Below, piece after piece: positions 6,679 to 20,794 of a DNA stretch of 37,212 nucleotides. Origin of the DNA: Candidatus Campbellbacteria bacterium CG22_combo_CG10-13_8_21_14_all_43_18 (GTDB taxonomy: Bacteria > Patescibacteriota > Minisyncoccia > Phycocordibacterales > GCA-002724975); assembly GCA_002771565.1 (NCBI GenBank), contig PCTS01000034.1, positions 877-38,088 on the forward strand. Reading direction: 5' to 3'. How positions within the stretch are numbered: the first letter of the stretch is position 1; each line of letters opens with the position of its first letter. The notes below the pieces were generated by a model. The model saw only the letters and a list, made by a program, of their open reading frames with translations. It ran no database searches and had not been told where the DNA came from. The translations under genes were made by a program, and so were the position numbers.

Positions 6679-6701
6679 ATTGAGAGGTCCGACCTCTCAA
6701 T
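6679..6701. repeat. REP-like palindromic element, copy 2
   Basis: ATTGAGAGGTCCGACCTCTCAAT, with the core 21-mer at 6680..6700. It lies 6 nt after the pcrA stop and 28 nt before the transposase ATG, and is followed by TTTAATAAAAATT. Confidence 0.9.
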
Positions 6702-7403: not shown

Positions 7404-7422
7404 GAGGTCCGACCTCTCAAAT
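7398..7422. repeat. REP-like palindromic element, copy 5 (provides the transposase stop codon; sits just upstream of rsmA)
   Basis: The same 25-mer, with the core at 7400..7420. Here it is read in a different frame (att TGA), which terminates the ORF. Confidence 0.9.
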
Positions 7423-8218: not shown

Positions 8219-8561
8219 CAGTGCCCTGAACGGGAATCCCAAAAAACGGAGTGAGCAGGCAAAAGCCGCCGAACGAGTAATTTCCGACGACGGAAACCCC
8301 CGGCCTAAGCATAAATTCCTTGTAAAGTTTGGACCGCCCGGTTTGAAAGAGAAAAACACCGGAGGAGGGCGGGGAAACTACCAAGGCCACGCCGCCGTTT
8401 AAACAGGGAGTGGCAAAAGTTATTTTCCCTCCGAAGGAGCCGAGAGAAAAAGAAAAGGGGGCGGCCGAGGCAAGGGGCGGAATCGTAAAAAAAAGAAGGA
8501 CGCAAACAACCAAGAAGAAAGCGGTTTTTTTCTTTTTGAAAAGAATTACTCCGGAAAACAT
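8190..8561 (-). CDS. Small secreted hypothetical protein (signal peptide, 2 Cys in the mature part)
   Basis: 123 aa. The N-terminal TM/signal segment ends in PLASAAP. An extended -10 TGATATTAT (8576..8568, minus) lies 6 nt upstream of the ATG. The gene is divergent from the T4SS-like operon. Its 3' end overlaps rsmA by 29 nt. Confidence 0.55.
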   Translation of the reverse strand: MFSGVILFKKKKTAFFLVVCVLLFFTIPPLASAAPFSFSLGSFGGKITFATPCLNGGVALVVSPPSSGVFLFQTGRSKLYKEFMLRPGVSVVGNYSFGGFCLLTPFFGIPVQGTVRNIGTSSF

Positions 8562-8588: not shown

Positions 8589-8597
8589 TTATCCACA
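8589..8597. promoter_or_regulatory. Perfect DnaA-box 9-mer TTATCCACA
   Basis: Exact consensus 9-mer, 14 nt upstream of the putative -35 of the T4SS-like operon. It overlaps the hairpin CACAAGC-ATAAAAAA-GCTTGTG (8594..8615). Confidence 0.35.
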
Positions 8598-8610
8598 AGC
8601 ATAAAAAAGC

Positions 8611-8641
8611 TTGTGATTGCTTCGTTTTTGTCTGATATAAT
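8611..8641 (+). promoter_or_regulatory. Putative promoter of the 8666..20794 operon
   Basis: TTGTGA (8611..8616), a 19-nt spacer, then TATAAT (8636..8641) with an extended -10 TG at 8633..8634. The -10 box ends 24 nt upstream of the ATG at 8666. Confidence 0.45.
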
Positions 8642-8665
8642 TACCCAGAGTGCCGTGAGAAAGAA

Positions 8666-9628
8666 ATGAGATTTTTACCAAGCAAAAAAGTTATCTTGCC
8701 GGTTTTGTTTGTTGTAGCTGCTTTGACCATAGCAAGCGTTTTACAAAAAGAAGAAAGGCCCTCCGCCCAAGGCTCAAAACAAAATTTGGACGAAGATTTG
8801 TCGGCAAAATACGAGGAGCTTCAAAAAGTGGCGGCCAAAGACTTGGATAAAGACGGCCTGCCGGACTGGGAAGAGGCTCTCTGGGGAACGGGCCCGAACA
8901 ACCCAGATTCGGACGGGGACGGCCTTTCGGACGGAGAGGAAGTAAGGGCGGGAAGAGACCCGAAGAAAGCCGGGCCGGACGACAAGCTCCCCAAAAAAGA
9001 CAGCCCGCCGGAAGAAGAGGAGGGTCTCTCGGCAACGGAAAAATTCGGACGGGACCTTTTTACCGGATACGCGGAACTTTCAACAAACCCCGTTTTCCGG
9101 GGAGATAAGTCCGAAGCTCTTTACAATTTTTTAGCCGCAAACATTTCTGCCGTGCCGGAAGCGGAAGAATACCGCCTCTCGGAGCTCAAGATTTCGGAAA
9201 AAACGAATGAAACAACCTTAAAAAATTACGGCAACCAGCTGGCTCTGAATCTGAAAAAGGGAGGAGGGCAAAATGAGCTTCGGGAGATAGCCAGAATTTT
9301 TGAAACGGAAGGGGCTCTCGGAATTCCGGAACTTCTGGAGATTATCGGTCTGAACAAAGAAATTCTGTCGGAAAACTTATTCATCGGAGTGCCCGCCGAA
9401 ATAGCTGGCCTGCATCTCTTTCTGATTAATAACCATAACAAGGTCATAGACGGCATGCTGAAGATAACGGAAATAAAAAACGACCCGCTTATGGCGGTTC
9501 TCGGACTCGGAAGTTATTCAAAAAGCTCGGAAGCTTTCTTGGAGGCCATAGGCGACCTGAAAGACTATCTTTCCGCCAAGGGCGTTGTATTCAAGACGGA
9601 CGAGCCGGGAGTGATTTTAAATAAGTAA
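8666..9628 (+). CDS. Membrane-anchored hypothetical protein with thrombospondin-type-3-like Asp-rich Ca-binding repeats
   Basis: 320 aa with an N-terminal TM (VILPVLFVVAALTIASVL). DKDGLPDWEEALWGTGPNNPDSDGDGLSDGEEVRAGRDP is a DxDxDG-type repeat. This is the first gene of the operon. Confidence 0.7.
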   Translation: MRFLPSKKVILPVLFVVAALTIASVLQKEERPSAQGSKQNLDEDLSAKYEELQKVAAKDLDKDGLPDWEEALWGTGPNNPDSDGDGLSDGEEVRAGRDPKKAGPDDKLPKKDSPPEEEEGLSATEKFGRDLFTGYAELSTNPVFRGDKSEALYNFLAANISAVPEAEEYRLSELKISEKTNETTLKNYGNQLALNLKKGGGQNELREIARIFETEGALGIPELLEIIGLNKEILSENLFIGVPAEIAGLHLFLINNHNKVIDGMLKITEIKNDPLMAVLGLGSYSKSSEAFLEAIGDLKDYLSAKGVVFKTDEPGVILNK

Positions 9629-9635
9629 CAAAGAA

Positions 9636-11693
9636 ATGACGAGAGCAAAAATGACAAGAGCAAAAAAAATAATCCTGACATTTTTGATAATTCTTTCGGG
9701 AATGACCTCTTTCGTCTCTTTCTCCCCAAAAGCCGAGGCCATAGACACCAAGACCTTGCTTGGGGGCGCGGGAGGTGTGGCTCTCCACTGCGCGGGAGTG
9801 CTGGACAAGATCGGGGGGTTTTTGGGAGGAATCCTTCCGGGAGGAGAAGTGCCGGTCAAAGAAAAAGCCGAAAGAAACAAAGAGGGCTGTCTGGACCAGC
9901 TGGCTTTTATCGGAGCAAATATTTTAATTGAAGAGACCATCAAATCCACGACGGACTGGATCAACGGCCGGTCGGGTGGCGGAGGACCGAAGTATGTTCA
10001 AAATGTCGGGCAATTTCTGGAGGGAGTAACCGACAAAACCATCGGCGAATATATAAACACTACGGATTTCGGCTACATCTGCGACCCCTTTAAACTCCAA
10101 ATCAAGACGCTTCTGGCCAGAGTAAATATTCCCGAAAAAAGAGCGGCTTGTACTTTGTCGGAGGTTGCTCAAAATATAGAAAACTTTATCGGCGGAGATT
10201 TTTACGATGGAGGTTGGAGCGCCTGGGGAGAGCTTGTTTCAAGAAGCAGTCCCTATAATGCCGCGACAAAAGCGGTGGCGGATCTTGAGGTTACCATCCA
10301 GGGGCAAAAAGAGATAGAACTCTCCAAACTGACCTGGGGCTCCGGGTTTTTGTCTTGGGACACTTGCCCGGGAGAAGCTTATCAGTGCAAAGCGGGAGGA
10401 ATATGGTACGACAATGTGGGAGAAGCAGAGTGCTTAAACCCGCCGCTTTTAACGGATGAAGAAACGGGCTTATTTACGGTTGAAAGGCCCGTCGGTTCCT
10501 GGCTCTGCCGAGCCGGTCTGCAGACAAACACGCCCGGAAGCGTCATAAACGAGCAGTTGAACAAAGTTTTGGGTTCGGGCCAGAACAGAATAGAGCAGGC
10601 CGATGAAATAAACGAGCTTATCAGCGGGCTTCTTTCAAAACTCATCGGTGATATTTTTTCCGACAAAGGATTGTTCGGTTTTGACCCGAGAGCAAGAGCC
10701 GGCTCGGAAGAGGAGCTCCTAAACTTTGACTCCTGCGAGAAGTACGGCATTTGCGATGCGGGAGAGACCGCGGAGGAAATTTGCGCTTACTGGAATATTT
10801 CCATAGACGAATGCGTCCCCGGAACAACGGTTGAGGTCTGCCGAGAAAGAGGGACGGGCGCGGAAAACATCGGAGTTTTCAACAACTCAAACGAAGGAAA
10901 CGGGAACCAAATCTGCGTTTTGATTAAAATTCCAAACCCCGACGAAAATCCGACAGAGGCAAAAGAGTGTTCCGACGGAATTGACAATGATGGAGACGGA
11001 AAGATTGACCTCTTTGATTCGGGGTGCCGAAATCTAAGCGATAATACGGAAGCAAGCGAGGCGGGAGAAACCGCTCCTCCGGCCTGCTCTGACGGAAAAG
11101 ACAACGACTCCGACGGTTTGATAGATTTCCCGGCTGATTCCGGGTGCTTGGGAGCGGGAGACAAAAGCGAAAAAGAGGGCGATGGAGACAATGATAATAA
11201 TGATAATGGCGGCGGGGGAAGCACGAGCTTCAGCGGAGACAACCCTTCGCCGAAGGCCCCCAAGACCTTAAATGACGTCGTCTGGCTCCATACGAATATC
11301 AGCGCTTGGAAAGAAGCATCCAAACTGAACAAGTCAAATATTTCCATTAAAGAAGGAGAAATCTGTTTGGACCACACAAAGAAAGGGCTTTGGCCGGAGA
11401 AAGACGGGGTTGAAGGGAACCCCTGGGTTCTGGCTTCAATTGAAGGCAAGTGGTATGCAGGGACATATGAGTGGTTGCGCCCCGGGCAGGTCTGCAAAGA
11501 ACTTAGCTCAAATCCGCCCGCAAGCACCGTCAAAGAGCTCATCGGCCCGCATGTCAAAGCCTCCCCTCTCCAAAACTGGAAACCAAGAAAGGGCGAGCTC
11601 GTCGGTTTTATGGTAAGCGCCCTAGCCAGAGACGGCTCTCTTAGAAATGTTCAGGAAAGAACGAACGCGGTTTTTATTGAATGGCCGTTTTGA
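9636..11693 (+). CDS. Large secreted hypothetical protein with two Cys-bracketed DNDxDG metal-binding-like repeats
   Basis: 685 aa. The signal peptide ends in SPKAEA. The repeats are CSDGIDNDGDGKIDLFDSGC (10968..11027) and CSDGKDNDSDGLIDFPADSGC (11085..11147), followed by a GDGDNDNNDNGGGG linker. The N- and C-terminal domains are unassigned. The start carries an MTRAK-MTRAK duplication. Confidence 0.75.
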   Translation: MTRAKMTRAKKIILTFLIILSGMTSFVSFSPKAEAIDTKTLLGGAGGVALHCAGVLDKIGGFLGGILPGGEVPVKEKAERNKEGCLDQLAFIGANILIEETIKSTTDWINGRSGGGGPKYVQNVGQFLEGVTDKTIGEYINTTDFGYICDPFKLQIKTLLARVNIPEKRAACTLSEVAQNIENFIGGDFYDGGWSAWGELVSRSSPYNAATKAVADLEVTIQGQKEIELSKLTWGSGFLSWDTCPGEAYQCKAGGIWYDNVGEAECLNPPLLTDEETGLFTVERPVGSWLCRAGLQTNTPGSVINEQLNKVLGSGQNRIEQADEINELISGLLSKLIGDIFSDKGLFGFDPRARAGSEEELLNFDSCEKYGICDAGETAEEICAYWNISIDECVPGTTVEVCRERGTGAENIGVFNNSNEGNGNQICVLIKIPNPDENPTEAKECSDGIDNDGDGKIDLFDSGCRNLSDNTEASEAGETAPPACSDGKDNDSDGLIDFPADSGCLGAGDKSEKEGDGDNDNNDNGGGGSTSFSGDNPSPKAPKTLNDVVWLHTNISAWKEASKLNKSNISIKEGEICLDHTKKGLWPEKDGVEGNPWVLASIEGKWYAGTYEWLRPGQVCKELSSNPPASTVKELIGPHVKASPLQNWKPRKGELVGFMVSALARDGSLRNVQERTNAVFIEWPF

Positions 11694-13921
11694 AAATGAA
11701 AAATCTTCTTCAGAAAAAAATAAAGAGTGTTTTGAGATGCTGGCCTTATCTGCTTCTTTTGCTGTTTGTCTTCATTCCCGCGGGAGAGGCGAGCGCGAAG
11801 TTTGAGATTGGGGCTATTCCCGTTATCGGCCCAGGCCTCGCTCTCTTTGAGTGGGCCACCGGCGGCAGTATCGCCGAACAGATATTTGCTTCTCTGGCTA
11901 ATTTGCTTTTGGCTTTCTTTGGAAGATTTTTGGAAATGGCCGGAATTTTCTTGAACTTTGCCATTGTTATGACCGTTCAGAAAATGTCAATCTTTATCAA
12001 CCACAACGAGGGCATTAAGGTGGCCTGGGAGGTTATCAGGGACATTTTGAATATCGGTTTTATCTTTACAATCGTCTATATCGGAGTTTCGACCATTCTG
12101 CGACTAGGAAGCAATCTGAAAAAAACCCTGGTGAATGTCATTGTGGCCGCGCTTTTGGTTAACTTCAGTTTTTTCTTTACCGGAGTTTTAATTGACGCTT
12201 CAAACATAACAACCTTGAGCGTTTACAATCAAATCAAAAATGTCCAGGCGAATACGGGGCATCCTTTTGTTGAGGGGATTGGTTTTTCATCCGAGGTTGA
12301 GGCGGGTGGGTCCGGGGAAGAGGTTTCAAACGCGGACCTTTCGCGCGGTATTGATATAGTGAATGTCGGAATATCCGGTATTTTTATGCAACATCTGAAA
12401 ATGCAGACTATTTTTAGCTTGGATTCCGATGTTCGGAAGGCGGCCAGTGCGAATTCATTGGAGTCAAGCAGTATAGTGCTGATTTCCATATTCGCAAGCA
12501 TTATCATTTTCATATTGACTTTTGTTTTTCTTACGGTGGCTCTTCTTCTTTTAATGAGGCTGGTTATACTCATCATTCTGATGATTCTCTCGCCGGTGGG
12601 CTTTGCCGGCTGGGCCATACAAGGAATGAAGAGCTGGTCGGACCAATGGTGGAAGGCCTTGTGGAGCCAGCTTCTTTTTGCTCCGCTCTATATGATTTTG
12701 ACTCTTGTCATTATTCTCATAATCGGCAATCCCGGATTTAAGTCCGCTTTGGCCGGGGTTTTCAATTACACGCCGGAGGAGTTCAGTTTGGCCAGTTTCA
12801 ATGACGCCATTATCGGCGGGCTGGCGAATGACATGATTGTTTTTGTCAACTACACCATTATTCTCGGTCTAATCATCAGCTCCATTGTTCTGGCAAAACA
12901 AACCTCGGCTTCAGGCGGTGGGCAAATCACGGTTTGGACGAATAGGCTCGGCGGATTTATCGGCAAAAGACAAAAACAGGCCCAAGGGCTCATTGGCCGG
13001 AACACCGTAGGCCGAGCGGCCGAGTTTGTGGGAGGAAAGGCGGAGAAATTCAGAAAAACCCAAGAAGAAAGCGGGGATTACAGCGATGATTTCGCGGGTC
13101 GCCTAACTCTTAGGGCGGTAACGGGCCTGGCGCGCGGTCTGGAAACTGCGGCAGGCAAAGGCCGCTCTGCCAAATTTGGAGGAGAGATCTCAAGAAAAGA
13201 CGCGACTGAAGCCGGAACAAGGAGATTAAGAGAGGGCCTTAAAAAGAGGGCGAGTGATCCGGAGGCGCAAGCCAGATTCTTAAGGAACTTGAGCCCGGGA
13301 GAACAGCAAAAGGCGCATAGCGAGATGAGCCACAGAAACAGAGCGGCTCTGGAAAACTCTCTTCGGGAGAGGTGGCAAGAGGAGGGGCTTTCCTTGGAAG
13401 AAATAGAAGGACGCATAAACAATCTAAGAAGCCGGTTGAGCGTTGAAGATAAAGAAAAAACGGACGAGGGCGGAAGGAAGGCTTTAAATGAGGCCCAAGC
13501 GAGAGAACGGGAAGCGAACCTGAAGATAGCCCTTGGAATTTCTCCCGGGGGCGAAGAGGAGAGGAGAGGGCCGGCTGAAGCCATCAGGTTAATGGACGAA
13601 ATGGATGACAAAGAATTTAAAGATCTGGGCGGAGAGATATTTACCACCGGAAGCGGAGCGGAAACAGAGGTCAGAAGAGAGATTCTGGACAGACTGCAAG
13701 TTTCGGACTTCGGAATCCTGCAGAGGTCGGAGAAATTAAACAGAACGCAAAAAGCCAGAATCGGAGCCTACATTTGGGAGAAAGCGGACAGGAGTAGAGG
13801 AAACGACCCGGTCTTCCAGTCTTATCTGAGAGGGCCGGCCGGAAACCATTGGCTTAACCCGGAAAATGTGGTTCTGCCGAGCGCGGGGAATGAAGACAGG
13901 CCCGGCGGGCTACGAACGTAA
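11681..13921 (+). CDS. Polytopic membrane protein, TrbL/VirB6-like, with a long charged C-terminal tail
   Basis: 746 aa with a signal-like N-terminus. At least 6 hydrophobic segments lie between residues 60 and 400, followed by a highly charged R/E/K-rich region of about 290 aa. The assignment rests on position next to the VirB3/VirB4 homologues and on topology, not on a specific motif. An alternative start is the ATG at 11696. Confidence 0.5.
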   Translation: MAVLKMKNLLQKKIKSVLRCWPYLLLLLFVFIPAGEASAKFEIGAIPVIGPGLALFEWATGGSIAEQIFASLANLLLAFFGRFLEMAGIFLNFAIVMTVQKMSIFINHNEGIKVAWEVIRDILNIGFIFTIVYIGVSTILRLGSNLKKTLVNVIVAALLVNFSFFFTGVLIDASNITTLSVYNQIKNVQANTGHPFVEGIGFSSEVEAGGSGEEVSNADLSRGIDIVNVGISGIFMQHLKMQTIFSLDSDVRKAASANSLESSSIVLISIFASIIIFILTFVFLTVALLLLMRLVILIILMILSPVGFAGWAIQGMKSWSDQWWKALWSQLLFAPLYMILTLVIILIIGNPGFKSALAGVFNYTPEEFSLASFNDAIIGGLANDMIVFVNYTIILGLIISSIVLAKQTSASGGGQITVWTNRLGGFIGKRQKQAQGLIGRNTVGRAAEFVGGKAEKFRKTQEESGDYSDDFAGRLTLRAVTGLARGLETAAGKGRSAKFGGEISRKDATEAGTRRLREGLKKRASDPEAQARFLRNLSPGEQQKAHSEMSHRNRAALENSLRERWQEEGLSLEEIEGRINNLRSRLSVEDKEKTDEGGRKALNEAQAREREANLKIALGISPGGEEERRGPAEAIRLMDEMDDKEFKDLGGEIFTTGSGAETEVRREILDRLQVSDFGILQRSEKLNRTQKARIGAYIWEKADRSRGNDPVFQSYLRGPAGNHWLNPENVVLPSAGNEDRPGGLRT

Positions 13922-13965
13922 ATAAGATTCTCGGATTCAAGTTCATCAAGCGCAACATAAAAAAT

Positions 13966-14664
13966 ATGAAAAAATACGACACCGAAGAATTAAACGATAT
14001 CTTTGACAGACTGCCGGAACCCCTGCGGGAAGCCATTTCTTCGGTTGAAACGGCCGATAAGCTTGAAGATATCAGAAAGAAATTCGGCCTGCATGTGGAC
14101 CAAGCCGGGAAACTGGGGAGCGAGACCGGTTTTGTTCTTCTGGGACTCGTGCCGATAAAAGAGTTTCGCCGAAATGTAAAAAGAAAGCTCGGTATTGATG
14201 AAGAGCTGACGGAAAAAATCGTCCGGGCCGTTGACGAGAAAATTTTGAGCGATGTCAGAGAAAGCCTAAAAAACTTAACCTCGGGCCCGGAAATAATTCC
14301 CCCGAAGCATGATGAGGAAAACTTGAACAGAGAAGAGGTTTTGAGAGAGTTGGAAGAAGAAAGCCGAGACGAAGAAGCCAAGGCCCGGACAGAGGATAGG
14401 CCGAAAGAAGACGCTCTTTCTCCGGCGGAGGCCAAAGATTTTCTGGCAGGGAATATTGAGAGAGGGGAGACCGCGGAAGAAAAGAGGGAGGAAAAACAAG
14501 AACAAGAAACGCCGCCCGCAAAAGAGGAATTTTTTGAAGAAAAGCTCCGGAGCCGGAGCGAGGGCGGTTTTTCTTCGGCCAAGTCCGAAGAGAAAAAAGG
14601 GGAGATAAAAATTATTCAAAAAAGTTACAAGGGCGGAGACCCCTACAGAGAGCCGATTGAATAA
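13966..14664 (+). CDS. Hypothetical acidic protein (folded N-terminal domain of about 100 aa plus an E/K-rich low-complexity tail)
   Basis: 232-aa ORF in the operon with no TM segment. Its composition is coding-like. The long antisense ORFs here are artefacts of the low complexity. Confidence 0.6.
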   Translation: MKKYDTEELNDIFDRLPEPLREAISSVETADKLEDIRKKFGLHVDQAGKLGSETGFVLLGLVPIKEFRRNVKRKLGIDEELTEKIVRAVDEKILSDVRESLKNLTSGPEIIPPKHDEENLNREEVLRELEEESRDEEAKARTEDRPKEDALSPAEAKDFLAGNIERGETAEEKREEKQEQETPPAKEEFFEEKLRSRSEGGFSSAKSEEKKGEIKIIQKSYKGGDPYREPIE

Positions 14665-14714
14665 ATTTTGCAATTCACGGCCTAAAAATTTTACTTTTTG
14701 AAAAAACAACGAAA

Positions 14715-15122
14715 ATGGCAAGACACCAAGTACCGCAATTTATAGAAGTTGAAGACAAAATTTTCGGTCCGCTCTCCTTCAAGCAGTTTATTTATCTCTT
14801 GGGAGGTGCTGGTTTTACTTTTATCATGTTCCGGGTCTTTCCGCTCTTTTTGGCTCTGCTTTTTGCGGCGCCGGTCATCGCTCTTAGCCTTTCTTTGGCT
14901 TTTTATAAAATAAACAGCAAGCCTTTTATTTTTACGCTGGAAGCGGGATTTAAATATATAATGAATGCCAAGCTCTATATATGGAAAAAAGAGCCCAAAA
15001 AACAAATTCCCAAGACGCCGGAGGAAGTCGGAGCGGAAATTTTTTCCGTGCCAAAGTTGTCGGAAAGCAAGCTGGACGACCTGGCTTGGGGTTTGGACAT
15101 TAAAGAAAAAGTTGAAGAATAA
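14715..15122 (+). CDS. PrgI family protein (VirB3-like small membrane component of Gram-positive-type T4SS)
   Basis: 135 aa. The N-terminus HQVPQFIEVEDKIFGPLSFKQFIYLLGG is followed by two TM segments, matching the PrgI-family pattern. The gene lies immediately upstream of the VirB4-like genes. Confidence 0.65.
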   Translation: MARHQVPQFIEVEDKIFGPLSFKQFIYLLGGAGFTFIMFRVFPLFLALLFAAPVIALSLSLAFYKINSKPFIFTLEAGFKYIMNAKLYIWKKEPKKQIPKTPEEVGAEIFSVPKLSESKLDDLAWGLDIKEKVEE

Positions 15123-15775
15123 TGGCGGGAGAAAAACCAACACAAAATTTTTTGCCGATAAAAGAAATCCGCGATGGAGTGGTCGTTTTGAAAGACGGTT
15201 CCTTTAAAACCATTCTGCTGGCTTCTTCTTTGAATTTTGCCCTGAAGTCAAGAGACGAACAGAGCGCCATTCTTTTGCAATTCCAGAACTTTCTGAATTC
15301 TCTGGATTTCCCCGTTCAATTTTTTATCCAATCAAGAAGGTTGGACATCAGGCCCTATACCCAAACCTTGGAAGAAAGATATTCTGTCCAGAGAGACGAC
15401 CTGATGAAGCTTCAAATCAGAGAATATATATCTTTTGTCAAAGAGTTTACTTCAAACACCGACATTATGACAAAAAACTTTTTCATAGTTGTCGGATATC
15501 AGCCCCCCATTATCAATACCGACAAAGGCCTTCTCGGCCAGATTTTCAAAAAAAGAAGCGCCGCAGGAAAAACAACCGAGGATGATTTGTTCTACGAAAA
15601 CAACAGCCAGCTGGAGCAGAGAGTCGCGGTCGTCTCCCAGGGCCTGATTCGTTCCGGAGTCAGAGTCATAAAACTCGGGACGGGAGAATTGGTTGAATTA
15701 TTCTTCAAGATATTTAATCCGGGCGAACAAGGCCGGGCGGCTCGGATAACGAAAGAAACTTATGGGAATTCTTGA
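15122..15775 (+). CDS. VirB4 N-terminal-domain-like protein without an ATPase domain
   Basis: 217 aa. The start FLPIKEIRDGVVVLKDGSFKTILLASSLNFALKSRDEQSAILLQFQNFLNSL resembles the N-terminal region of Gram-positive VirB4/TraE-type ATPases. It has no Walker motifs. Its start overlaps the upstream stop (TAATG). Confidence 0.55.
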   Translation: MAGEKPTQNFLPIKEIRDGVVVLKDGSFKTILLASSLNFALKSRDEQSAILLQFQNFLNSLDFPVQFFIQSRRLDIRPYTQTLEERYSVQRDDLMKLQIREYISFVKEFTSNTDIMTKNFFIVVGYQPPIINTDKGLLGQIFKKRSAAGKTTEDDLFYENNSQLEQRVAVVSQGLIRSGVRVIKLGTGELVELFFKIFNPGEQGRAARITKETYGNS

Positions 15776-17567
15776 TTTTTTTAAAAAAAAGAAAGAGGAG
15801 GAACCCTTGACGCCGATTCTTCCGAAAGAGATATATGAATCCGGGGTTTTGGAGCTGAAAGATGTTATCGCGCCGAACGCTCTTAAAATAGGACCGCGGG
15901 AGCTTAATTTGGGAGACAAAATTGTCAGAACTTTTTTTGTCATGTCTTACCCGAGATTTCTTTCGGATAACTGGTTTGACCCCGTCATAAACCTGGATAG
16001 AGTTTTTGATGTCTCCATTTCAATAGAGCCGATAGAAACGGCCAATGTCTTGAGAAAATTTCAAAAAAAGGTGGCCGAAGTGGAAAGTCAGATAAGCGCC
16101 AGAGAGCAAAAGGGTTTGGTCAGAGACCCGATGCTTGACACGGCTTACAGAGATCTGGAGTCCTTGAGAGACCAGCTTCAGCAGGCCACGGAAAAACTTT
16201 TTGATGTCGGCCTCTATATTTCAATCTACGGAGAAACGAAGGACGAGTTGGACAAAATTGAAACGGAAATAAAGCAAATTCTGGAATCAAAACTTATTTA
16301 CATCAAACCGGCTCTCTTCCAGCAGGAACAAGGCTTTAAGAGCGTTATCCCTATCGGCAAAGACGAGCTTGATGTTAAAAACAAACTGAATTCTTCGCCT
16401 CTCTCCAGTGTCTTCCCTTTCATCTCCTTTGACCTAACCTCAAACAAAGGCGTTCTTTACGGTATAAACAGGCATAATTCCGGATTGGTTTTGTTTGACA
16501 GGTTCTCGCTTGAGAACTACAACTCGGTAACCTTCGCCACGGCCGGAGCGGGAAAATCGTTTGCCACAAAACTGGAGATACTCCGAACGCTGATGTTTGA
16601 CGCCGATGTCATCGTTATAGACCCGGAGTCGGAATATAAATATCTTTCCGAGGCAACCGGCGGCAGATTCTTTGATATTTCCCTCTCCTCCGGACACCAC
16701 ATTAACCCCTTTGACCTGCCTCCGGCCAGAAAAGACGAATCTCCGTCGGATGTCCTCCGGTCAAATATCATAAATTTGGTCGGTCTGTTCAGGTTGATGT
16801 TGGGAGGGCTTTCTCCGGAAGAAGACGCCACCGTGGACAGAGCCATCACGGAAACATACGCCTTAAAAGACATCACCCCGGAATCGGATTTTTCCAATGT
16901 GGAGCCGCCCCTTTTGTCCGATTTTGAACTCGTCCTTTCAGGAATGGAAGGAACGGAATCGTTAGTCCAAAGACTTTCAAAATATACCAAGGGAACCTGG
17001 TCGGGTTTCATCAACAGGCCGACCAATGTGGATATAAACAACAGATTCGTCGTCTTTTCCGTCAGAGATATGGAGGACGAACTCAAACCGGTAGCCATGT
17101 ACATCATCACCAACCATATTTGGAACACCGTCAGAAAAGAACTCAAGAAGAGGCTCCTGGTCATTGACGAGGCTTGGTGGATGATGAAATCCGAGGACAC
17201 GGCTTCTTTTATCTTTTCTCTGGCCAAGAGAGGCAGAAAATATTATCTTGGTCTTTCCACCATTACCCAGGATGTCGGGGACTTTCTGAAGTCCCAATAC
17301 GGACTGCCGATTATCACAAATTCCTCAATCCAACTTCTCTTGAAACAATCGCCTTCGTCCATTGATCAGGTTCAAAAAACCTTTAACCTGACGGAGGAAG
17401 AAAAATATCTCCTTTTGGAGTCGGCGGTTGGGGAGGGAATATTCTTCGCCGGCCTCAAGCATGTGGCCATAAAAATCATTCCCTCATACACGGAAGAGCA
17501 GATTATTACATCAGATCCCTCGCAATTATTAGCCATTCAAAAAGAAAGAGAAAAATTGGATGGATAA
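15762..17567 (+). CDS. VirB4/TrbE-like type IV secretion ATPase
   Basis: 601 aa. Walker A is ATAGAGKSFATK and Walker B is RLLVIDEAWWMM, and the C-terminal motif is GLSTITQD. The N-terminal domain carries RTFFVMSYPRFL. It overlaps the upstream gene by 14 nt. Confidence 0.85.
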   Translation: MGILDFFKKKKEEEPLTPILPKEIYESGVLELKDVIAPNALKIGPRELNLGDKIVRTFFVMSYPRFLSDNWFDPVINLDRVFDVSISIEPIETANVLRKFQKKVAEVESQISAREQKGLVRDPMLDTAYRDLESLRDQLQQATEKLFDVGLYISIYGETKDELDKIETEIKQILESKLIYIKPALFQQEQGFKSVIPIGKDELDVKNKLNSSPLSSVFPFISFDLTSNKGVLYGINRHNSGLVLFDRFSLENYNSVTFATAGAGKSFATKLEILRTLMFDADVIVIDPESEYKYLSEATGGRFFDISLSSGHHINPFDLPPARKDESPSDVLRSNIINLVGLFRLMLGGLSPEEDATVDRAITETYALKDITPESDFSNVEPPLLSDFELVLSGMEGTESLVQRLSKYTKGTWSGFINRPTNVDINNRFVVFSVRDMEDELKPVAMYIITNHIWNTVRKELKKRLLVIDEAWWMMKSEDTASFIFSLAKRGRKYYLGLSTITQDVGDFLKSQYGLPIITNSSIQLLLKQSPSSIDQVQKTFNLTEEEKYLLLESAVGEGIFFAGLKHVAIKIIPSYTEEQIITSDPSQLLAIQKEREKLDG

Positions 17568-18096
17568 GGAAGAAAGAGAAAGACATAGCCTGGGCCGCAA
17601 AAAGAAGAGGGTTCGGATGGGCGCGGCCTTTTTGATGATTTTTCTTGCCCTGGCCTTTGACGCTCTCCAAGCCTTATTGCTTTTTCTTTTCGGTACGGGG
17701 CTCTTTCTTAATAGAATAGTTACCATTGTGGCCTGGGCCATTTTCGCTTTTTGGTTTTGGATGAAAGATGTAAAAATCTTGAGCTTTGAGAGCAAGGGTC
17801 TTTCAAAATTTATCCCCGGCGCCGTTTCTTTCGTTTCTGAAATGGTGCCGGTAATCGGCGCCCTTCCCGGCCTGACCGCGGGAGTTGCGGTTATTATAAT
17901 GATAACTTACTTTGAGGATGAAACCGGGCTTAACCTAAAAGAAGTAACGGGCGGAGTTTTTCCGAAAGTCGGCGGGGCAACGGGAGAAAGAATTCCGGCT
18001 AGGAACAAGGAAGGCGGGCGAGGTATAATTAAAAGCGCCGACGGACGAGAGAGAGCGCTTAAAAGAAATTCAGGAAAAAGAAGGCCGGCAAGTTAA
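17560..18096 (+). CDS. Hypothetical 4-TM membrane protein
   Basis: 178 aa with four hydrophobic segments. It overlaps the virB4-like stop by 8 nt, which suggests translational coupling. Confidence 0.6.
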   Translation: MDKEERERHSLGRKKKRVRMGAAFLMIFLALAFDALQALLLFLFGTGLFLNRIVTIVAWAIFAFWFWMKDVKILSFESKGLSKFIPGAVSFVSEMVPVIGALPGLTAGVAVIIMITYFEDETGLNLKEVTGGVFPKVGGATGERIPARNKEGGRGIIKSADGRERALKRNSGKRRPAS

Positions 18097-18100
18097 AGAG

Positions 18101-19072
18101 ATGAAAAGATTTCCAGCAATATTTTTAATCATCTTCTTTCTGCCGCTTTTGGCGGTAAGGGGGCAGAGCTTGGAAGAGTCGGGGGAACTCGTTCCGGCTC
18201 TTTCTCCCGAGGCGCCAGGGCCCGGAGAAAACCTAACCATTAGAGTTTCCTCTCCGGATGTTTCCCTGGCGGGCTTTTTAATTTTATGGAGAGAAAACGG
18301 GGTTTTGAAAAAAGAAGGGGTGGGAGAAACTCTTTATGAGACCAAAACGGGACCGGCGGGCTCTGTCCTGAACATTTCGGTTTCCGCCCGCAGGGCAAAC
18401 GAGTTTCTAAGCAAGGAAATAAGTGTCAGGCCGGCGGAAGCCAGTCTTGTTTGGGAGGCGGATGTTTATACTCCGATGTTTTACCAAGGAAAAGGTTTAG
18501 CCTCCCACCAGTCCGAAGTCCGCTTTGTCGCTTTGGTTGATATGTTTGACAATTCGGGCAAAAAGGCCTCCCCGCAAAATATTTTTTACGAATGGTCGGT
18601 CGGAAACAAAGTTGACAAGGGCCGGTCCGGCTTAGGTAAAGATACTTTCCGATTGCGCGGAGAGATTGTTTCAAGAAGCAAAGACGTTTTGCTTCTGGCT
18701 TCTTTGCCGAACACGAACATCAAAGCCCGCGCCGGAGTTTTGCTTGATTTTGTCGAGCCGGAATTGTTGGTTTACAAAGAAAACCCGCTCTCGGGATTGA
18801 GAGAAAGCGAGGTCGCGAGGTCCGTACCCATAGAAGAGGGAGAGGCGACATTTGTGGCCGAGCCGTATTTTTTCTCTCGGGACATCTTTAACTCGGGCAG
18901 GCTTGCTTTTGATTGGAGGGTGGGGGGGAGAAAAATTGAAAACCTCAAAACCTCCAACAAAATTACCATCGGCGGAGAGAATAAGGGAAGTTCCGCCGTC
19001 TCGGTTTCCGTTTTGAACCCCGTCTCTTTTTTACAAAAAGCTTTCGCTTCGTTTAGTGTTGTTTTAAGATAA
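18101..19072 (+). CDS. Secreted hypothetical protein
   Basis: 323 aa with signal peptide MKRFPAIFLIIFFLPLLAVRG. The composition is beta-rich and I recognise no motif. Confidence 0.6.
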   Translation: MKRFPAIFLIIFFLPLLAVRGQSLEESGELVPALSPEAPGPGENLTIRVSSPDVSLAGFLILWRENGVLKKEGVGETLYETKTGPAGSVLNISVSARRANEFLSKEISVRPAEASLVWEADVYTPMFYQGKGLASHQSEVRFVALVDMFDNSGKKASPQNIFYEWSVGNKVDKGRSGLGKDTFRLRGEIVSRSKDVLLLASLPNTNIKARAGVLLDFVEPELLVYKENPLSGLRESEVARSVPIEEGEATFVAEPYFFSRDIFNSGRLAFDWRVGGRKIENLKTSNKITIGGENKGSSAVSVSVLNPVSFLQKAFASFSVVLR

Positions 19073-19092
19073 GCCCCGAAGATAAAATCATT

Positions 19093-19506
19093 GTGAAGAA
19101 AAAAATCGGAAAAAAAATGTTTGTCTTTTTTATAGTCTTTTTTGCGGTTTGGTCTTTCTGGAATACGGCTTTCTCCCAAGATACTTACGACCCCATTTCT
19201 CCCGACCTGCCGATTGAAAGCCTGCAGAAAGGAAGGGTTCCTTCTTTGGGGGAGTACCTGAACGAGATATTTACTTTTACTTTGGCCATAGCGGCTCTGC
19301 TGGCGGTTATTCGGATAACAATGGGGGGAATCACGTATATGACAAGCAGTAGCGGCGGGGCAACGGGAGAAGCTAGAGAGACCATAAAGTCCGCCGTTTT
19401 GGGGCTTCTGGTTATCTTGGCCACCTATCTCATCCTAAACCAAATAAATCCGGACATTTTGAGATTCGATATCGGGGGAAGAGAGGTTAATGAAATAACG
19501 AAATAA
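19093..19506 (+). CDS. T4SS pilin-like protein (TrbC/VirB2-like, CPR pilin type)
   Basis: 137 aa with a GTG start (alternative ATG at 19117). A signal peptide is followed by two hydrophobic helices separated by GGITYMTSSSGGATGEARETIKS, the hallmark architecture of VirB2/TrbC-type pilins. Confidence 0.6.
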   Translation: MKKKIGKKMFVFFIVFFAVWSFWNTAFSQDTYDPISPDLPIESLQKGRVPSLGEYLNEIFTFTLAIAALLAVIRITMGGITYMTSSSGGATGEARETIKSAVLGLLVILATYLILNQINPDILRFDIGGREVNEITK

Positions 19507-19531
19507 GAAAATTTGACTCTGATAAAAGACT

Positions 19532-20794
19532 ATGAATAAAAAATTTTTGCTTATTATAATAATCGCGGTTATAGCGACCCTTGGGTTGTTGTTTTTTTTG
19601 AGAGCGAGCCAAAGTCAAGACGGCCCGGATGATTTTTCCGCCGACGAAAAGAACCCCATCTTCGGCGGGAGCGGAAACCGAAATGAAGACGGTTTGGCCG
19701 GAGAAGAGAGCGTCGAAGAAAAATCGGAGTTCGGTTTGGGGGGAGGAAAAAATCTCCCGCGGCTCCGAAAAATCACTTTCAAGGAAATATCGGGCTTTGG
19801 GCTTTTTGGGAATAAAGGAACAACAACCATTCGTTTTGTTGACAAAGAGTCCGGTAATGTTTTTGAAACGAACACAAAAACCTCGGAAACAAAAAGAATA
19901 ACGAATACGACCATCTTGCGAACCGTCAATTCCTGGTGGTTTGATGAAAGCAGGTTTTTATTAAGATATGTTGACGAAGAAAACAATATTCAAACTTTCT
20001 CGGCGGAAATACAAAAAGAAGCGGAAGACGGAGCGCTTCCTCTCTCCGGAGTTTTTCTTGACAGCGGAATAAAGAGCTTGAGCGTCTTCGGCCAAAATGT
20101 TTTTCATCTTGAAGAGGGAGGGGGAAGCCGGGGAATTGTTTCTTCCTACGGAACTCTAAATAAAAATGTCGTTCTGGAAACCCCGCTTGAAGAAATCATT
20201 CCGATTTTCTACGCCCAAAATAGCCTGGCCGTCGGAACAAAACCCTCTTATCTGTCGGCCGGTTTTATTTTTTTGCTAAACACAAGCACCGGAAATCTGG
20301 AAAAACTTTTGGGAGGAGAAAGGGGGTTTTACGGAAACATTCTGAATGAGAAGGGGGATGTTCTCTTCAGCCTAGGCAAAAATACCGGAGTATCCCTGTG
20401 GTTTTGGGAGAGAGAGAAGAATAAAAGTTTGAAGCTTTCCAAAGAAACTTTGGTGGAAAAATGCGCCTGGAGAGAGGAAGAAAAATCGCTCTATTGCGCC
20501 GTTCCGGAAGATACGGGCTTCATCGGTCTGCCGGATATTTGGTATAAAGGACTGGTTTCTTTTTCCGACAGTCTTTGGAAAATAAATGTTGAAACAAACG
20601 AATCAAAGCTTCTGTCGGATCTCAACTTGGAGTCCGGAGAGCGGGTGGATGCCCTTGAAATCAGGTTGGATGAGGGCGGAGAGAACCTCTTCTTTGTAAA
20701 TAAAAAAGACGGAACACTCTGGTCTTTAGTCCTGGAAAAAAAGGAGGTGGAGGCGTTCGGAGCGTCTAATCGGGGAATTCCTGAAAGCGAATAA
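19532..20794 (+). CDS. N-terminally anchored hypothetical protein (possible beta-propeller-like ectodomain)
   Basis: 420 aa with an N-terminal TM (FLLIIIIAVIATLGLLFFL). This is the last gene of the operon. Its 3' end overlaps jag by 29 nt in convergent orientation. Confidence 0.6.
   Translation: MNKKFLLIIIIAVIATLGLLFFLRASQSQDGPDDFSADEKNPIFGGSGNRNEDGLAGEESVEEKSEFGLGGGKNLPRLRKITFKEISGFGLFGNKGTTTIRFVDKESGNVFETNTKTSETKRITNTTILRTVNSWWFDESRFLLRYVDEENNIQTFSAEIQKEAEDGALPLSGVFLDSGIKSLSVFGQNVFHLEEGGGSRGIVSSYGTLNKNVVLETPLEEIIPIFYAQNSLAVGTKPSYLSAGFIFLLNTSTGNLEKLLGGERGFYGNILNEKGDVLFSLGKNTGVSLWFWEREKNKSLKLSKETLVEKCAWREEEKSLYCAVPEDTGFIGLPDIWYKGLVSFSDSLWKINVETNESKLLSDLNLESGERVDALEIRLDEGGENLFFVNKKDGTLWSLVLEKKEVEAFGASNRGIPESE

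What the first reader, a model, noticed from the sequence alone, without database searches (positions are those of the whole stretch)
8589..20794. 12-kb, 11-gene type IV secretion-like operon without DNA-transfer genes, mostly built from unassigned secreted and membrane proteins
Eleven co-directional genes are packed with gaps of 50 nt or less or with overlaps (TAATG at 15122, 14-nt, 8-nt and 13-nt overlaps), behind one promoter-like site (8611..8641). Four products carry recognisable T4SS signatures. They are a VirB4-type ATPase (Walker A/B, 15762..17567), a PrgI/VirB3-like protein (14715..15122), a two-helix VirB2/TrbC-like pilin (19093..19506) and a polytopic TrbL/VirB6-like protein with a charged tail of about 290 aa (11681..13921). 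The remaining seven genes have no family I can name. These are two Asp-rich Ca-binding-repeat surface proteins, an acidic cytoplasmic protein, a 4-TM protein, a secreted protein, an anchored ectodomain protein and a VirB4 N-domain paralogue. The window contains no relaxase, no VirD4/TcpA coupling ATPase, no VirB11 and no dedicated lytic transglycosylase. The machine is therefore unlikely to be a classical conjugation system. In an organism with a reduced genome it may instead be a host-contact, effector-delivery or DNA-uptake device. The operon also points toward the dnaA/oriC region, so it would be head-on to replication if the origin call is right. That orientation is unusual for a long operon and is compatible with secondary acquisition.
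Basis: partly seen in the sequence, partly recalled or inferred. Interest (0 to 1): 0.8.

Follow-up and report, generated by a model that had tools for sequence, protein, structure and literature searches.

The report
Patescibacteria-type chromosomal type IV secretion operon
This 12-kb operon is a typical copy of the chromosomal, relaxase-less type IV secretion system already described in ultrasmall Patescibacteria (CPR), so it is a real machine of a known kind; the extra leads are a possible pilus-tip protein and a DnaA box at its promoter.

Summary
Eleven co-directional genes (8666-20794) lie with gaps of 50 nt or less, or overlaps of 1, 8, 13 and 14 nt, behind an extended -10 promoter-like site. 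Family models confirm PrgI/VirB3, VirB4 and a VirB2-like pilin. VirB6 is confirmed through orthologues and a profile match to TrwI. The "VirB4 N-domain paralogue" is a TrsD-type separate N-terminal piece of VirB4.

The window matches Candidatus Campbellbacteria MAG GCA_002796365.1 (class Paceibacteria). The layout uvrD-ksgA-T4SS-(jag)-yidC-dnaA-dnaN recurs across 80 other Patescibacteria species. VirB4 (median 77% identity) is more conserved than DnaA (57%). The operon is an old, vertically kept core locus, not a recent acquisition.

This system is already published, including the missing relaxase and the position near dnaA and ksgA (Wang 2023; Quinonero-Coronel 2025).

- g2 belongs to a large unnamed family. 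Some members start with the TrbJ/VirB5 signature, and the gene sits directly before VirB6, as virB5 does.
- g9 is three Ig-like domains, and g11 is probably a TolB-like propeller.
- A perfect DnaA box recurs upstream of the operon.

The substrate and the direction of transport remain unknown.

The parts
8589..8597 (+). Perfect DnaA box TTATCCACA, 77 nt upstream of the g1 start codon
   Evidence: Perfect boxes lie 75-384 nt from the g1 match in 6 of 40 relatives (5 on the + strand, 47-93 nt upstream of the g1 ORF start), against a background of 0.029 per kb. A regulatory role is inferred, not shown.
8611..8641 (+). Promoter-like site: TTGTGA, 19-nt spacer, TGaTATAAT (extended -10)
   Evidence: Read. 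Missed by the scan because of the 19-nt spacer. TGnTATAAT lies within 50 nt of the g1 ORF in 16 of 40 relatives.
8666..9628 (+). g1: membrane-anchored protein with TSP3-type Ca-binding Asp repeats and a conserved C-terminal domain of unknown fold
   Evidence: PF18884, 39.4 bits. The profile matches the Ca-binding region of biofilm-associated surface protein Bap, E=1.5e-5. Orthologues found in 40 of 80 loci.
9636..11693 (+). g2: secreted protein with a conserved helical core (residues about 62-352) and a lineage-variable Cys/Asp-rich C-terminal part; candidate VirB5/TrbJ-like tip protein
   Evidence: The family has 6,544 cluster representatives. The TrbJ N-terminal motif is present in some members but not in this copy. 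There is no PDB fold match. GenBank starts the gene at 9651.
11681..13921 (+). g3: extended VirB6/TrbL-like polytopic protein with a charged C-terminal tail of about 300 aa
   Evidence: Eight of 39 orthologues hit Pfam TrbL. The profile matches TrwI (7o3v_F), E=3.2e-5, as the only PDB hit. Overlaps g2 by 13 nt.
13966..14664 (+). g4: acidic protein without a signal peptide; conserved N-terminal domain of about 100 aa and a conserved C-terminal DPYREP motif; unassigned
   Evidence: no family or PDB match.
14715..15122 (+). g5: PrgI/VirB3-like membrane protein
   Evidence: PF12666, 34.6 bits against a cutoff of 27. Found in 76 of 80 loci, median 52% identity.
15122..15775 (+). g6: TrsD-type protein, the VirB4 N-terminal domain encoded as a separate gene
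   Evidence: Matches positions 2-118 of VirB4 model NF045971 and TrsD model NF041427. PF26593 TraC-like. Found in 79 of 80 loci.
15762..17567 (+). g7: VirB4 ATPase (middle and C-terminal P-loop domains), MPF_FATA/CD1110 type
   Evidence: NF045971, 385 bits against a cutoff of 325. PF19044. Walker A and B motifs present. 75-80% identical across 80 species.
17560..18096 (+). g8: small polytopic membrane protein, fast-evolving and dispensable in some relatives
   Evidence: No family. A small protein with 2-5 predicted TM segments sits at this position in about 50 of 72 relatives; no room for such a gene (gap of about 100 nt or less) in about 17.
18101..19072 (+). g9: secreted protein made of three tandem Ig-like beta-sandwich domains
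   Evidence: AF2 model, pLDDT 86.5. Foldseek top hits are phage Hoc, Sidekick and FnIII tandems, E down to 1e-9. Found in 76 of 80 loci.
19093..19506 (+). g10: VirB2/TrbC-like pilin (signal peptide plus two hydrophobic helices)
   Evidence: PF18895, 27.9 bits against a cutoff of 26.6. Mbov_0395 pilin-like NF045849, E=4e-4.
19532..20794 (+). g11: N-terminally anchored ectodomain, probably a TolB-like beta-propeller
   Evidence: The profile matches TolB, E=4.6e-4. PD40 or DPPIV_N in 3 of 41 orthologues. Found in 63 of 80 loci. The evidence is weak.
8190..8561 (-). Possible associated gene: divergent small secreted protein (123 aa)
   Evidence: Annotated in the GenBank record. Weakly conserved on the - strand between ksgA and g1 in at least 3 relatives at E<1e-3, with 5 further matches at E 0.004-0.1. 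No family. Its link to the T4SS is unproven.
3470..4447 (-). Possible associated gene: M23 peptidase with LysM domains, a candidate cell-wall remodelling enzyme
   Evidence: PF01551 plus LysM. Recurs upstream of uvrD in 11 relatives. Such proteins are counted as VirB1-like in PMC12102498. The link is inferred only.

Best explanation
[quoted passage not shown] The copy here is from Candidatus Campbellbacteria (Paceibacteria).

Proposed working:
1. A VirB4 ATPase made of two polypeptides (TrsD-like g6 plus g7) docks through PrgI/VirB3 (g5) onto an extended VirB6 channel protein (g3) in the single membrane.
2. This platform extracts and polymerises the VirB2-like pilin (g10) into a tube or pilus.
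3. g2, encoded directly before VirB6, is proposed to cap or seat this tube as VirB5/TrbJ does, and to present a variable adhesin-like C-terminus.
4. The secreted Ig-repeat protein (g9), the Ca-binding anchored protein (g1) and the propeller protein (g11) form a fast-evolving cell-wall and host-contact layer.

The machine serves contact-dependent exchange with the host cell that the episymbiont needs for growth. It does not serve conjugation.

Shown here: gene content, homologies, conserved synteny and conservation levels. Taken from the literature: essentiality in Saccharibacteria. Inferred: the assembly model, the role of g2, and the substrate and direction of transport.
For: - Component homologies.
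- More than 548 VirB4 relatives were found. The 80 listed are all uncultured-bacterium MAGs, most titled Patescibacteria or one of its groups, and are 75-80% identical.
- Synteny uvrD-ksgA-g1..g11-(jag)-yidC(-)-dnaA-dnaN across the 80 related species: g6 in 79, g5 and g9 in 76, g10 and g11 in 63, g3 in 59, dnaA in 57.
- VirB4 has a median identity of 77.4% against 56.8% for DnaA, and is at least 16 points higher in all 57 genomes that hold both. Extracellular parts are only 27-35% identical. This fits an essential motor with a diversifying host interface.
- No relaxase or coupling ATPase in the window. No att repeats, integrase or tRNA.
- Literature: the same system, with the same absences and the same position near dnaA, ksgA and rnpA, is described in PMC12102498. 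Its genes, including the pilin array, are essential for epibiotic growth of Southlakia epibionticum while comEC is dispensable (PMC10633639, PMC12857230). Tubular structures penetrate the host in a cultivated Minisyncoccota strain (bioRxiv 10.64898/2026.06.21.733656).
- g2 as VirB5-like.
Against: - No experiment exists for any Paceibacteria T4SS. Essentiality data come from a different class (Saccharimonadia) with a different accessory gene set.
- The pilin assignment is only 1.3 bits above the Pfam cutoff.
- The rest of this genome could not be searched, so a distant coupling ATPase or relaxase is not excluded. PMC12102498 finds VirD4-like proteins far from virB4 in most Patescibacteria genomes.
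- No VirB8-like or VirB1-like protein was identified in the cluster, so the envelope-spanning part of the model is guesswork.
- The VirB5 reading of g2 rests on a short N-terminal motif that this window's copy lacks, and the model of the core has no fold match.
- The 80 relatives were chosen by VirB4 similarity, which inflates the VirB4 identity figure somewhat.
Confidence: 0.85

Rival explanations
1. It is an import conduit. The pilus or tube penetrates the host envelope, and the VirB4-driven channel takes up host macromolecules (RNA, nucleotides or other cytoplasmic material) into a parasite that cannot make them.
For: A cultivated Minisyncoccota strain takes up host RNA and shows tubular structures penetrating the host, which the authors suggest may be T4SS pili; VirB4 is monophyletic in the phylum (bioRxiv 10.64898/2026.06.21.733656). 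The T4SS is essential while ComEC-dependent DNA uptake is not (PMC12857230). No export-type coupling ATPase lies in the cluster. Precedents for importing T4SS-like systems exist (ComB and Ced, from established knowledge); g7 shows a weak local hit to CedB, E=8.8e-10, over the P-loop region only.
Against: The link between the tubes and the T4SS is the authors' suggestion, not a result. Nothing in this sequence indicates the direction of transport. The CedB similarity covers only about 70 residues of the shared ATPase fold.
Confidence: 0.4
2. It is an effector or toxin exporter. The system delivers proteins into or onto the host cell to manipulate or permeabilise it, as in Legionella, Xanthomonas or the Streptococcus suis 89K system.
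For: Wang et al. propose protein export or an alternative capacity because the relaxase and coupling protein are missing (PMC10633639). T4SSs without a coupling protein that export proteins exist (Ptl, Brucella VirB; PMC12102498).
Against: No candidate effector, immunity or chaperone genes are recognisable in the cluster. All non-core products carry signal peptides or membrane anchors, so they would use Sec rather than the T4SS channel.
Confidence: 0.25
3. It is a conjugative or DNA-transfer system after all, working with a relaxase and coupling ATPase encoded elsewhere in the genome.
For: VirD4-like proteins are found in most Patescibacteria genomes, usually far from virB4 (PMC12102498). VirB4 is of a conjugation-derived class. 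The rest of this genome was not searchable.
Against: Relaxases occur in only 103 of 3,035 Patescibacteria genomes, and the distant coupling-protein gene is not essential in Southlakia (PMC12102498). The cluster is fixed next to dnaA among housekeeping genes in relatives and is under stronger constraint than DnaA, which is unlike a mobile element.
Confidence: 0.07
4. It is mainly an adhesion organelle. The VirB2-like pilus, with Ig-like and Ca-binding surface proteins, only attaches the cell to its host, and nothing is transported.
For: g1, g2, g9 and g11 look like surface or adhesin modules. C-terminal parts of the g2 family carry Ig-like, discoidin-like and InlB-repeat domains.
Against: Patescibacteria already use type IV pili for adhesion (PMC12857230), and a PilB gene is in this window. 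The extreme conservation of the VirB4 motor does not by itself separate assembly from transport.
Confidence: 0.15

Closest known systems
Patescibacteria-clade T4SS (Quinonero-Coronel et al. 2025, PMC12102498; Southlakia epibionticum SEML1_0006-0019, Wang et al. 2023, PMC10633639)
   Same: MPF_FATA-type VirB4, a separate TrsD gene, PrgI/VirB3, VirB6, a VirB2-like pilin, no relaxase or coupling protein nearby, and a chromosomal position near dnaA, dnaN, ksgA and rnpA, as reported for Paceibacteria.
   Different: There is a single pilin gene rather than the 6-gene array of Southlakia. No lysozyme or peptidase lies directly downstream of virB4. The accessory set g1, g2, g4, g8, g9 and g11 shared with the related Patescibacteria MAGs is not named in those papers.
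Gram-positive conjugative T4SS of the pGO1/pSK41 subclass (TrsC, TrsD, TrsE) and of pCF10 (PrgH, PrgI, PrgJ)
   Same: VirB4 with a separately encoded N-terminal-like TrsD, a PrgI/TrsC VirB3 homologue, a polytopic VirB6-like protein, and a monoderm envelope without VirB7, VirB9 or VirB10.
   Different: No relaxase, coupling ATPase, VirB1-type hydrolase (TrsG/PrgK), VirB8-like protein (PrgL) or LPXTG adhesin. It has a VirB2-like pilin, which Gram-positive systems lack. It is chromosomal and immobile.
TrbJ/VirB5 with TrbL/VirB6 of P-type (MPF_T) systems
   Same: g2 is a secreted, largely helical protein encoded immediately before the VirB6 homologue, as in the trbJ-(small ORF)-trbL order seen. 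Some family members begin with the TrbJ signature QWVVxDPxNLxQNT straight after the signal peptide.
   Different: Only about 23 columns align in the profile-profile comparison. The window copy lacks the motif. The core is larger, Cys-containing and has no detectable fold match to solved VirB5 structures. It carries long variable C-terminal extensions.
Mycoplasma ICE T4SS (Mbov_0397 VirB4, Mbov_0395 pilin-like protein)
   Same: The VirB4 halves and the pilin give sub-threshold matches to these NCBIfam models. Both hosts are wall-less or monoderm with reduced genomes.
   Different: Scores are far below the family cutoffs (268 against 590; 20 against 40). The Mycoplasma system is on a mobile ICE with DNA-processing genes.

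Membership tests
Patescibacteria-clade T4SS (MPF_FATA-derived) | VirB4 of the monoderm FATA type that groups with Patescibacteria VirB4 | tested here: met
   NF045971 (CD1110 family), 385 bits against a cutoff of 325. More than 548 relatives; the 80 listed are MAGs mostly titled Patescibacteria or one of its groups, 75-80% identical. No tree was built here.
Patescibacteria-clade T4SS (MPF_FATA-derived) | TrsD-like gene (VirB4 N-terminal homologue) next to virB4 | tested here: met
   g6 matches VirB4 model positions 2-118 and TrsD NF041427, plus PF26593. Adjacent in 79 of 80 relatives.
Patescibacteria-clade T4SS (MPF_FATA-derived) | PrgI/VirB3 and VirB6 homologues near virB4 | tested here: met
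   PrgI is above the Pfam cutoff. VirB6 is supported through orthologues (TrbL in 8 of 39) and a profile match to TrwI, E=3.2e-5. The window protein alone gives no hit.
Patescibacteria-clade T4SS (MPF_FATA-derived) | VirB2-like pilin gene near virB4 | tested here: met
   PF18895, 27.9 bits against a cutoff of 26.6; marginal.
Patescibacteria-clade T4SS (MPF_FATA-derived) | No relaxase or coupling protein in the cluster; chromosomal site near dnaA, dnaN, ksgA and rnpA (Paceibacteria pattern) | tested here: met
   window ORFs; synteny. The whole genome was not searched.
Classical conjugative T4SS or ICE | Relaxase and VirD4/TcpA coupling ATPase associated with the mating-pair genes | tested here: not met
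   None among the window ORFs. The remainder of the genome is not testable with these tools.
Classical conjugative T4SS or ICE | Mobile-element hallmarks: integrase, att repeats, tRNA target, patchy distribution | tested here: not met
   No tRNA. No flanking repeats above noise. Same site and orientation in the related species. Ordinary GC content.
VirB5/TrbJ minor pilin (for g2) | N-terminal mature signature (QWVVxDPxNLxQN) after the signal peptide | tested here: inconclusive
   Present in about 13 of 91 family members. P0027 passes Pfam DUF4141, 32.5 bits against 30, and its first 18 mature residues match trbJ or DUF4141 genes in 12 of 13 PLSDB hits. hhalign E=3.8e-5 over 23 columns. The window copy (IDTKTLLGGAGG...) lacks the motif.
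VirB5/TrbJ minor pilin (for g2) | Elongated helical-bundle fold with a globular appendage, as in TraC of pKM101 | tested here: inconclusive
   The AF2 core model (pLDDT 72.7, pTM 0.48) has four long helices plus a small beta insert. Foldseek against the PDB finds nothing, best E=2.2. The sequence profile against the PDB is also empty.
VirB5/TrbJ minor pilin (for g2) | Gene placed immediately upstream of virB6/trbL | tested here: met
   g2 overlaps g3 by 13 nt. The order is kept in 43 relatives. trbJ or a DUF4141 gene precedes trbL/VirB6 in four plasmids.
VirB8-like (NTF2 fold) component | Bitopic protein with an NTF2-like ectodomain in the cluster | tested here: inconclusive
   g9 is Ig-like, not NTF2. 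g11 looks like a propeller.
DNA-uptake T4SS (Ced or ComB type) | CedB/CedA or ComB component set | tested here: not met
   Only a 70-residue P-loop match to CedB, 37.8 bits against a cutoff of 700. No other Ced or ComB families were hit.

The most novel reading that the evidence does not exclude
The Patescibacteria T4SS would be a hybrid. It would combine a monoderm FATA-type motor with a complete pilus module of the diderm kind: VirB2-like pilin, VirB6, and the large unnamed g2 family (6,544 cluster representatives) as a so far unrecognised, highly diverged VirB5/TrbJ tip protein. The swappable C-terminal adhesin domains of g2 would set host range. Expression of the whole operon would be tied to DnaA through a box in its promoter.
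Probability: 0.3. Interest if true: 0.55.

Novelty: already known. Interest (0 to 1): 0.3.

Why it matters
Patescibacteria are a large share of bacterial diversity, and this T4SS is one of the few machines shown to be essential for their epibiotic life. Its substrate is unknown.

This locus adds nothing new at the level of the system. It does give a clean reference layout shared with 80 related Patescibacteria species, and it shows three things:
- The motor is more conserved than DnaA, while the surface parts diverge fast.
- There are concrete candidates for the missing parts: a VirB5-like tip protein (g2), an Ig-repeat protein (g9) and a propeller protein (g11).
- A recurrent DnaA box could link expression of the operon to replication control.

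All of these can be tested in the few cultivated strains.

Tried and rejected
g3, g1, g4 and g11 could not be modelled.
It was repeated with the trimmed core.
- g2 core: no PDB sequence match and no fold match.
- g4: no family or PDB match.
- RP4 and R388 records were not in the collections under BN000925 and BR000038. TrbJ sequences were taken from PLSDB hits instead.
- DnaA boxes are not enriched in the window as a whole (8 against 5.4 expected at up to one mismatch), and the window's own dnaA-dnaN spacer has only 2-mismatch boxes. The origin call therefore rests on AT richness and on relatives.
- GC skew follows the coding strand and cannot place the origin.
- No Rfam families or tRNAs in the window.
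- ICE or att hypothesis rejected: only short purine-rich chance repeats flank the cluster.
- The Y1/IS200-like gene next to ksgA was considered as a possible HUH relaxase surrogate and rejected. It is absent from all 80 relatives and is tied to its own REP-like hairpins.

Full report
**1. Observation.**
The ORF map shows eleven + strand genes from 8666 to 20794. Gaps are 7, 44, 50, 4, 20 and 25 nt. Overlaps are 13 nt (g2/g3), 1 nt (TAATG, g5/g6), 14 nt (g6/g7) and 8 nt (g7/g8).

The promoter-like site is real as sequence: TTGTGA (8611-8616), a 19-nt spacer, then TATAAT (8636-8641) preceded by TG, giving an extended -10 element TGATATAAT. The consensus scan missed it only because it allows 16-18 nt spacers. 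In 16 of 40 relatives a TGnTATAAT element lies within 50 nt upstream of the first gene. Promoter-like and terminator-like matches inside the operon are at chance level, so a single transcription unit is plausible but not shown.

**2. Component identities.**
- g5 is PrgI/VirB3 (PF12666, 34.6 bits against a cutoff of 27).
- g7 is a VirB4 of the monoderm CD1110 family (NF045971, 385 bits against 325), with Walker A (ATAGAGKS) and Walker B (LLVIDE) motifs.
- g10 passes the T4SS_pilin model narrowly (27.9 against 26.6).
- g6 matches positions 2-118 of the same VirB4 model, while g7 matches 179-733. g6 also matches TrsD and carries PF26593 TraC-like. It is therefore the N-terminal part of VirB4 encoded as its own gene, not a paralogue.
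- g3 alone has no family hit. Eight of 39 orthologues hit Pfam TrbL/VirB6, and a profile of the membrane domain finds TrwI, the VirB6 of R388, as its only PDB match (E=3.2e-5). With its charged tail of about 300 residues it fits the "extended VirB6" type described in PMC12857230.
- g1 has TSP3 Ca-binding repeats.
- g2 has acidic double-disulfide repeats.

**3. Context and origin of the sequence.**
The flanks are housekeeping genes:
- Upstream: Mg-chelatase-like ATPase, M23/LysM peptidase (- strand), UvrD, a Y1 transposase-like gene and KsgA.
- Downstream: Jag, YidC and RnpA on the - strand, then DnaA, DnaN, RuvC and a class A PBP.

An identical g2 protein identifies the source as PCXD01000022.1 of GCA_002796365.1, Candidatus Campbellbacteria bacterium CG11.

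A scan of one genome per GTDB species found more than 548 VirB4 relatives. The best 80 are all uncultured-bacterium MAGs, most titled Patescibacteria or one of its groups, at 75-80% identity.

tblastn of the window proteins against these 80 loci shows the order uvrD-ksgA-g1...g11-(jag)-yidC(-)-dnaA-dnaN with the same orientations throughout. Detection counts out of 80:

| Gene | Loci |
|---|---|
| g7 | 80 |
| g6 | 79 |
| g5, g9 | 76 |
| g10, g11 | 63 |
| g3 | 59 |
| dnaA | 57 |
| g2 | 43 |
| g1, g4 | 40 |
| g8 | 15 |

Many loci are cut by contig ends, so these are lower bounds. A small polytopic membrane protein occupies the g8 position in about 50 of 72 loci, even where sequence similarity is lost.

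**4. Conservation pattern.**
Median identities to the window proteins:

| Protein | Median identity |
|---|---|
| VirB4 | 77.4% |
| TrsD | 56.7% |
| PrgI | 52.3% |
| DnaA | 56.8% |
| UvrD | 51.9% |
| KsgA | 48.5% |
| DnaN | 43.7% |
| g1, g2, g3, g9, g11 | 27-29% |
| g10 (pilin) | 35% |

In all 57 genomes that hold both, VirB4 is at least 16 points more conserved than DnaA. The loci were ranked by VirB4 similarity, which biases this upward, but the gap is large. The pattern is an essential, strongly constrained cytoplasmic motor with a rapidly diverging envelope and host-facing set.

**5. Replication orientation and acquisition.**
The dnaA-dnaN spacer has GC 0.18. In relatives, 20 of the 40 perfect DnaA boxes lie just upstream of dnaN. 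oriC is therefore most likely there, and the operon is transcribed toward it, head-on to the leftward fork.

The same is true of the whole + strand block from 197 to 20794. The arrangement is conserved across species. GC content is ordinary. There is no integrase, tRNA or att-like repeat. The head-on orientation is therefore an old, tolerated feature of this lineage and is not evidence of secondary acquisition. GC skew here follows the coding strand and is not informative.

**6. What is already known.**
Quinonero-Coronel et al. 2025 (PMC12102498) surveyed 3,035 Patescibacteria genomes and reported the following:
- 2,425 VirB4 proteins form a monophyletic clade nested in MPF_FATA.
- TrsD is the most abundant companion (2,272 homologues).
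- PrgI/VirB3, VirB6 and VirB2-like pilins lie near virB4.
- VirB8 and VirB1 are mostly undetected.
- Relaxases occur in only 103 genomes.
- VirD4-like genes usually lie far from virB4.
- In Paceibacteria, virB4 lies near dnaA, dnaN, ksgA, rnpA and rpmH.

Wang et al. 2023 (PMC10633639) showed by Tn-seq that the Southlakia epibionticum T4SS cluster, pilins included, is essential for epibiotic growth and lacks a recognisable coupling protein and relaxase. The 2025 FEMS review (PMC12857230) lists these systems and speculates on a pilus conduit for exchange or uptake. A 2026 preprint reports host RNA uptake and host-penetrating tubes, possibly T4SS pili, in a cultivated Minisyncoccota strain. The finding is therefore a typical member of a published system, with the same "unusual" features already noted in print.

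**7. The unassigned genes.**
- **g9.** The AF2 model (pLDDT 86.5) shows three tandem Ig-like beta-sandwiches. Foldseek finds phage Hoc, Sidekick and FnIII tandems. This is a generic surface or spacer architecture, not VirB8.
- **g11.** A profile of orthologues matches TolB propellers (E=4.6e-4), with sporadic PD40 and DPPIV_N hits. It is probably an anchored beta-propeller, but the evidence is weak.
- **g4.** It has a conserved N-terminal domain of about 100 residues and a conserved C-terminal DPYREP motif, with no match anywhere.
- **g2.**
  - *Family and model.* Only residues about 62-352 are conserved. The C-terminal part varies between genomes and in other members carries Ig-like, discoidin-like, Big_7 or InlB-repeat domains. 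The core family is large: 6,544 cluster representatives at E<=1e-3 and 4,315 at E<=1e-30 among 1.84 billion. It has no Pfam model. The AF2 model of the core (pLDDT 72.7, pTM 0.48) is mostly long helices with a small beta insert and has no PDB fold match.
  - *TrbJ/VirB5 signal.* Six of 61 members hit Pfam DUF4141. One of them, P0027, is above the cutoff (32.5 against 30). Four hit NCBIfam TrbJ and one hits VirB5. These matches cover the signal peptide and the first 35 or so mature residues.
  - *The motif.* The first 18 mature residues of P0027 (QWVVTDPTNLVQNTISAI) gave 13 tblastn matches in 7.3 Gb of plasmids, and 12 of them lie in trbJ or DUF4141 genes at 72-83% identity. Four such TrbJ proteins start QWVV[VIT]DP[TSG]N[LM][VI][QE]NT. 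Profile-profile comparison aligns just this motif (23 columns, E=3.8e-5, probability 71%). The motif follows the signal peptide in about 13 of 91 family members. It is replaced by a Gly/Ala-rich stretch in the window protein.
  - *Gene order.* In the four plasmids, trbJ or the DUF4141 gene lies right before trbL/VirB6, as g2 lies before g3.
  - *Reading.* I read g2 as a candidate, highly diverged VirB5-like tip or seat protein with a variable adhesin end. It is a lead, not a membership call. PMC12102498 does not report VirB5 in the Patescibacteria clade.

**8. Mechanism.**
Best-supported model:
1. TrsD plus VirB4 form the ATPase.
2. The ATPase is held at the membrane by PrgI/VirB3 on an extended VirB6 channel.
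3. This platform assembles the VirB2-like pilin.
4. g2 seats on or caps the structure.
5. g1, g9 and g11 build a diverging wall-spanning or host-contact layer.
6. An M23/LysM peptidase 4 kb upstream may open the wall.

The purpose is contact-dependent exchange with the host that the reduced-genome cell needs. Conjugation is unlikely.

Basis of each part:
- Shown here: homologies, synteny and constraint.
- From the literature: essentiality in another class, and tubes at the host interface.
- Inferred: assembly order, the role of g2, the substrate and the direction of transport.

Among the functional variants I rank uptake of host material first (0.4), effector export second (0.25), adhesion only third (0.15) and conjugation with remote partners last (0.07). 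These are sub-hypotheses of the same machine and are not all mutually exclusive.

**9. Verdict.**
The T4SS call and the non-conjugative reading stand. The "paralogue" and "secondary acquisition" readings do not.
- The system is already known, so interest is modest.
- The session's own additions are the conserved 11-gene layout shared across the related species, the VirB4-above-DnaA constraint, the Ig-repeat and propeller assignments, the VirB5-like lead for a very large unnamed family, and a recurrent DnaA box in front of the operon.

Noticed in passing
window 8589-8597 (+); also 4673-4681 (-): There are two perfect DnaA boxes (TTATCCACA), where about 0.3 are expected for perfect 9-mers in 37 kb on both strands (my own estimate). 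One lies 77 nt upstream of the first T4SS gene and the other 31 nt upstream of uvrD. In the 80 relatives, the region upstream of g1 is the second hot spot of perfect boxes (6 of 40), after the dnaA-dnaN spacer (20 of 40). This suggests DnaA control of the operon.
   Followed up: partly
window 41-61, 6680-6700, 6918-6938, 7185-7205, 7400-7420: Five copies of a perfect palindrome TTGAGAGGTCCGACCTCTCAA are present, where none is expected by chance. Two lie inside the Y1/IS200-like ORF 6729-7403 (translated NLRGPTSQ), one at the uvrD stop and one at the Y1 stop/ksgA start, so KsgA begins MDLRGPTSQ. This looks like a REP/RAYT-like pair whose hairpins sit in coding sequence. The Y1 gene is absent from all 80 relatives.
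   Followed up: partly
window 8190-8561 (-): A 123-aa ORF with a signal peptide runs divergently from the T4SS promoter and overlaps the ksgA end by 29 nt. It is annotated in GenBank and weakly conserved at the same place in several relatives (E from 3e-6 to 0.1). It has no family.
   Followed up: partly
window 23862-24084: The dnaA-dnaN spacer is extremely AT-rich (GC 0.18) and has only degenerate DnaA boxes in this genome, while relatives carry perfect boxes there. It is the likely oriC. The 3' half of dnaA and all of dnaN are also low in GC (0.23-0.38 against about 0.45 elsewhere).
   Followed up: partly
window 13966-14664 (g4), C-terminus: A C-terminal DPYREP motif is nearly invariant across g4 orthologues, although the preceding 100 or so acidic residues are not alignable. 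It looks like a short docking peptide with an unknown partner.
   Followed up: no
window 3470-4447 (-): An M23 peptidase with two LysM domains keeps its position upstream of uvrD-ksgA-T4SS in 11 relatives. It may be the wall-opening enzyme that the cluster itself lacks.
   Followed up: no
window 30102-31769 (-): A PilB-type T2SSE ATPase with an MshEN domain stands alone between ruvB and an unassigned 172-aa secreted ORF (31885-32403). No other type IV pilus genes lie in the window.
   Followed up: no
L001-L080, compared with window 15762-17567: VirB4 is 75-80% identical across species whose DnaA is only 50-61% identical. That is unusually strong constraint for a secretion ATPase.
   Followed up: yes
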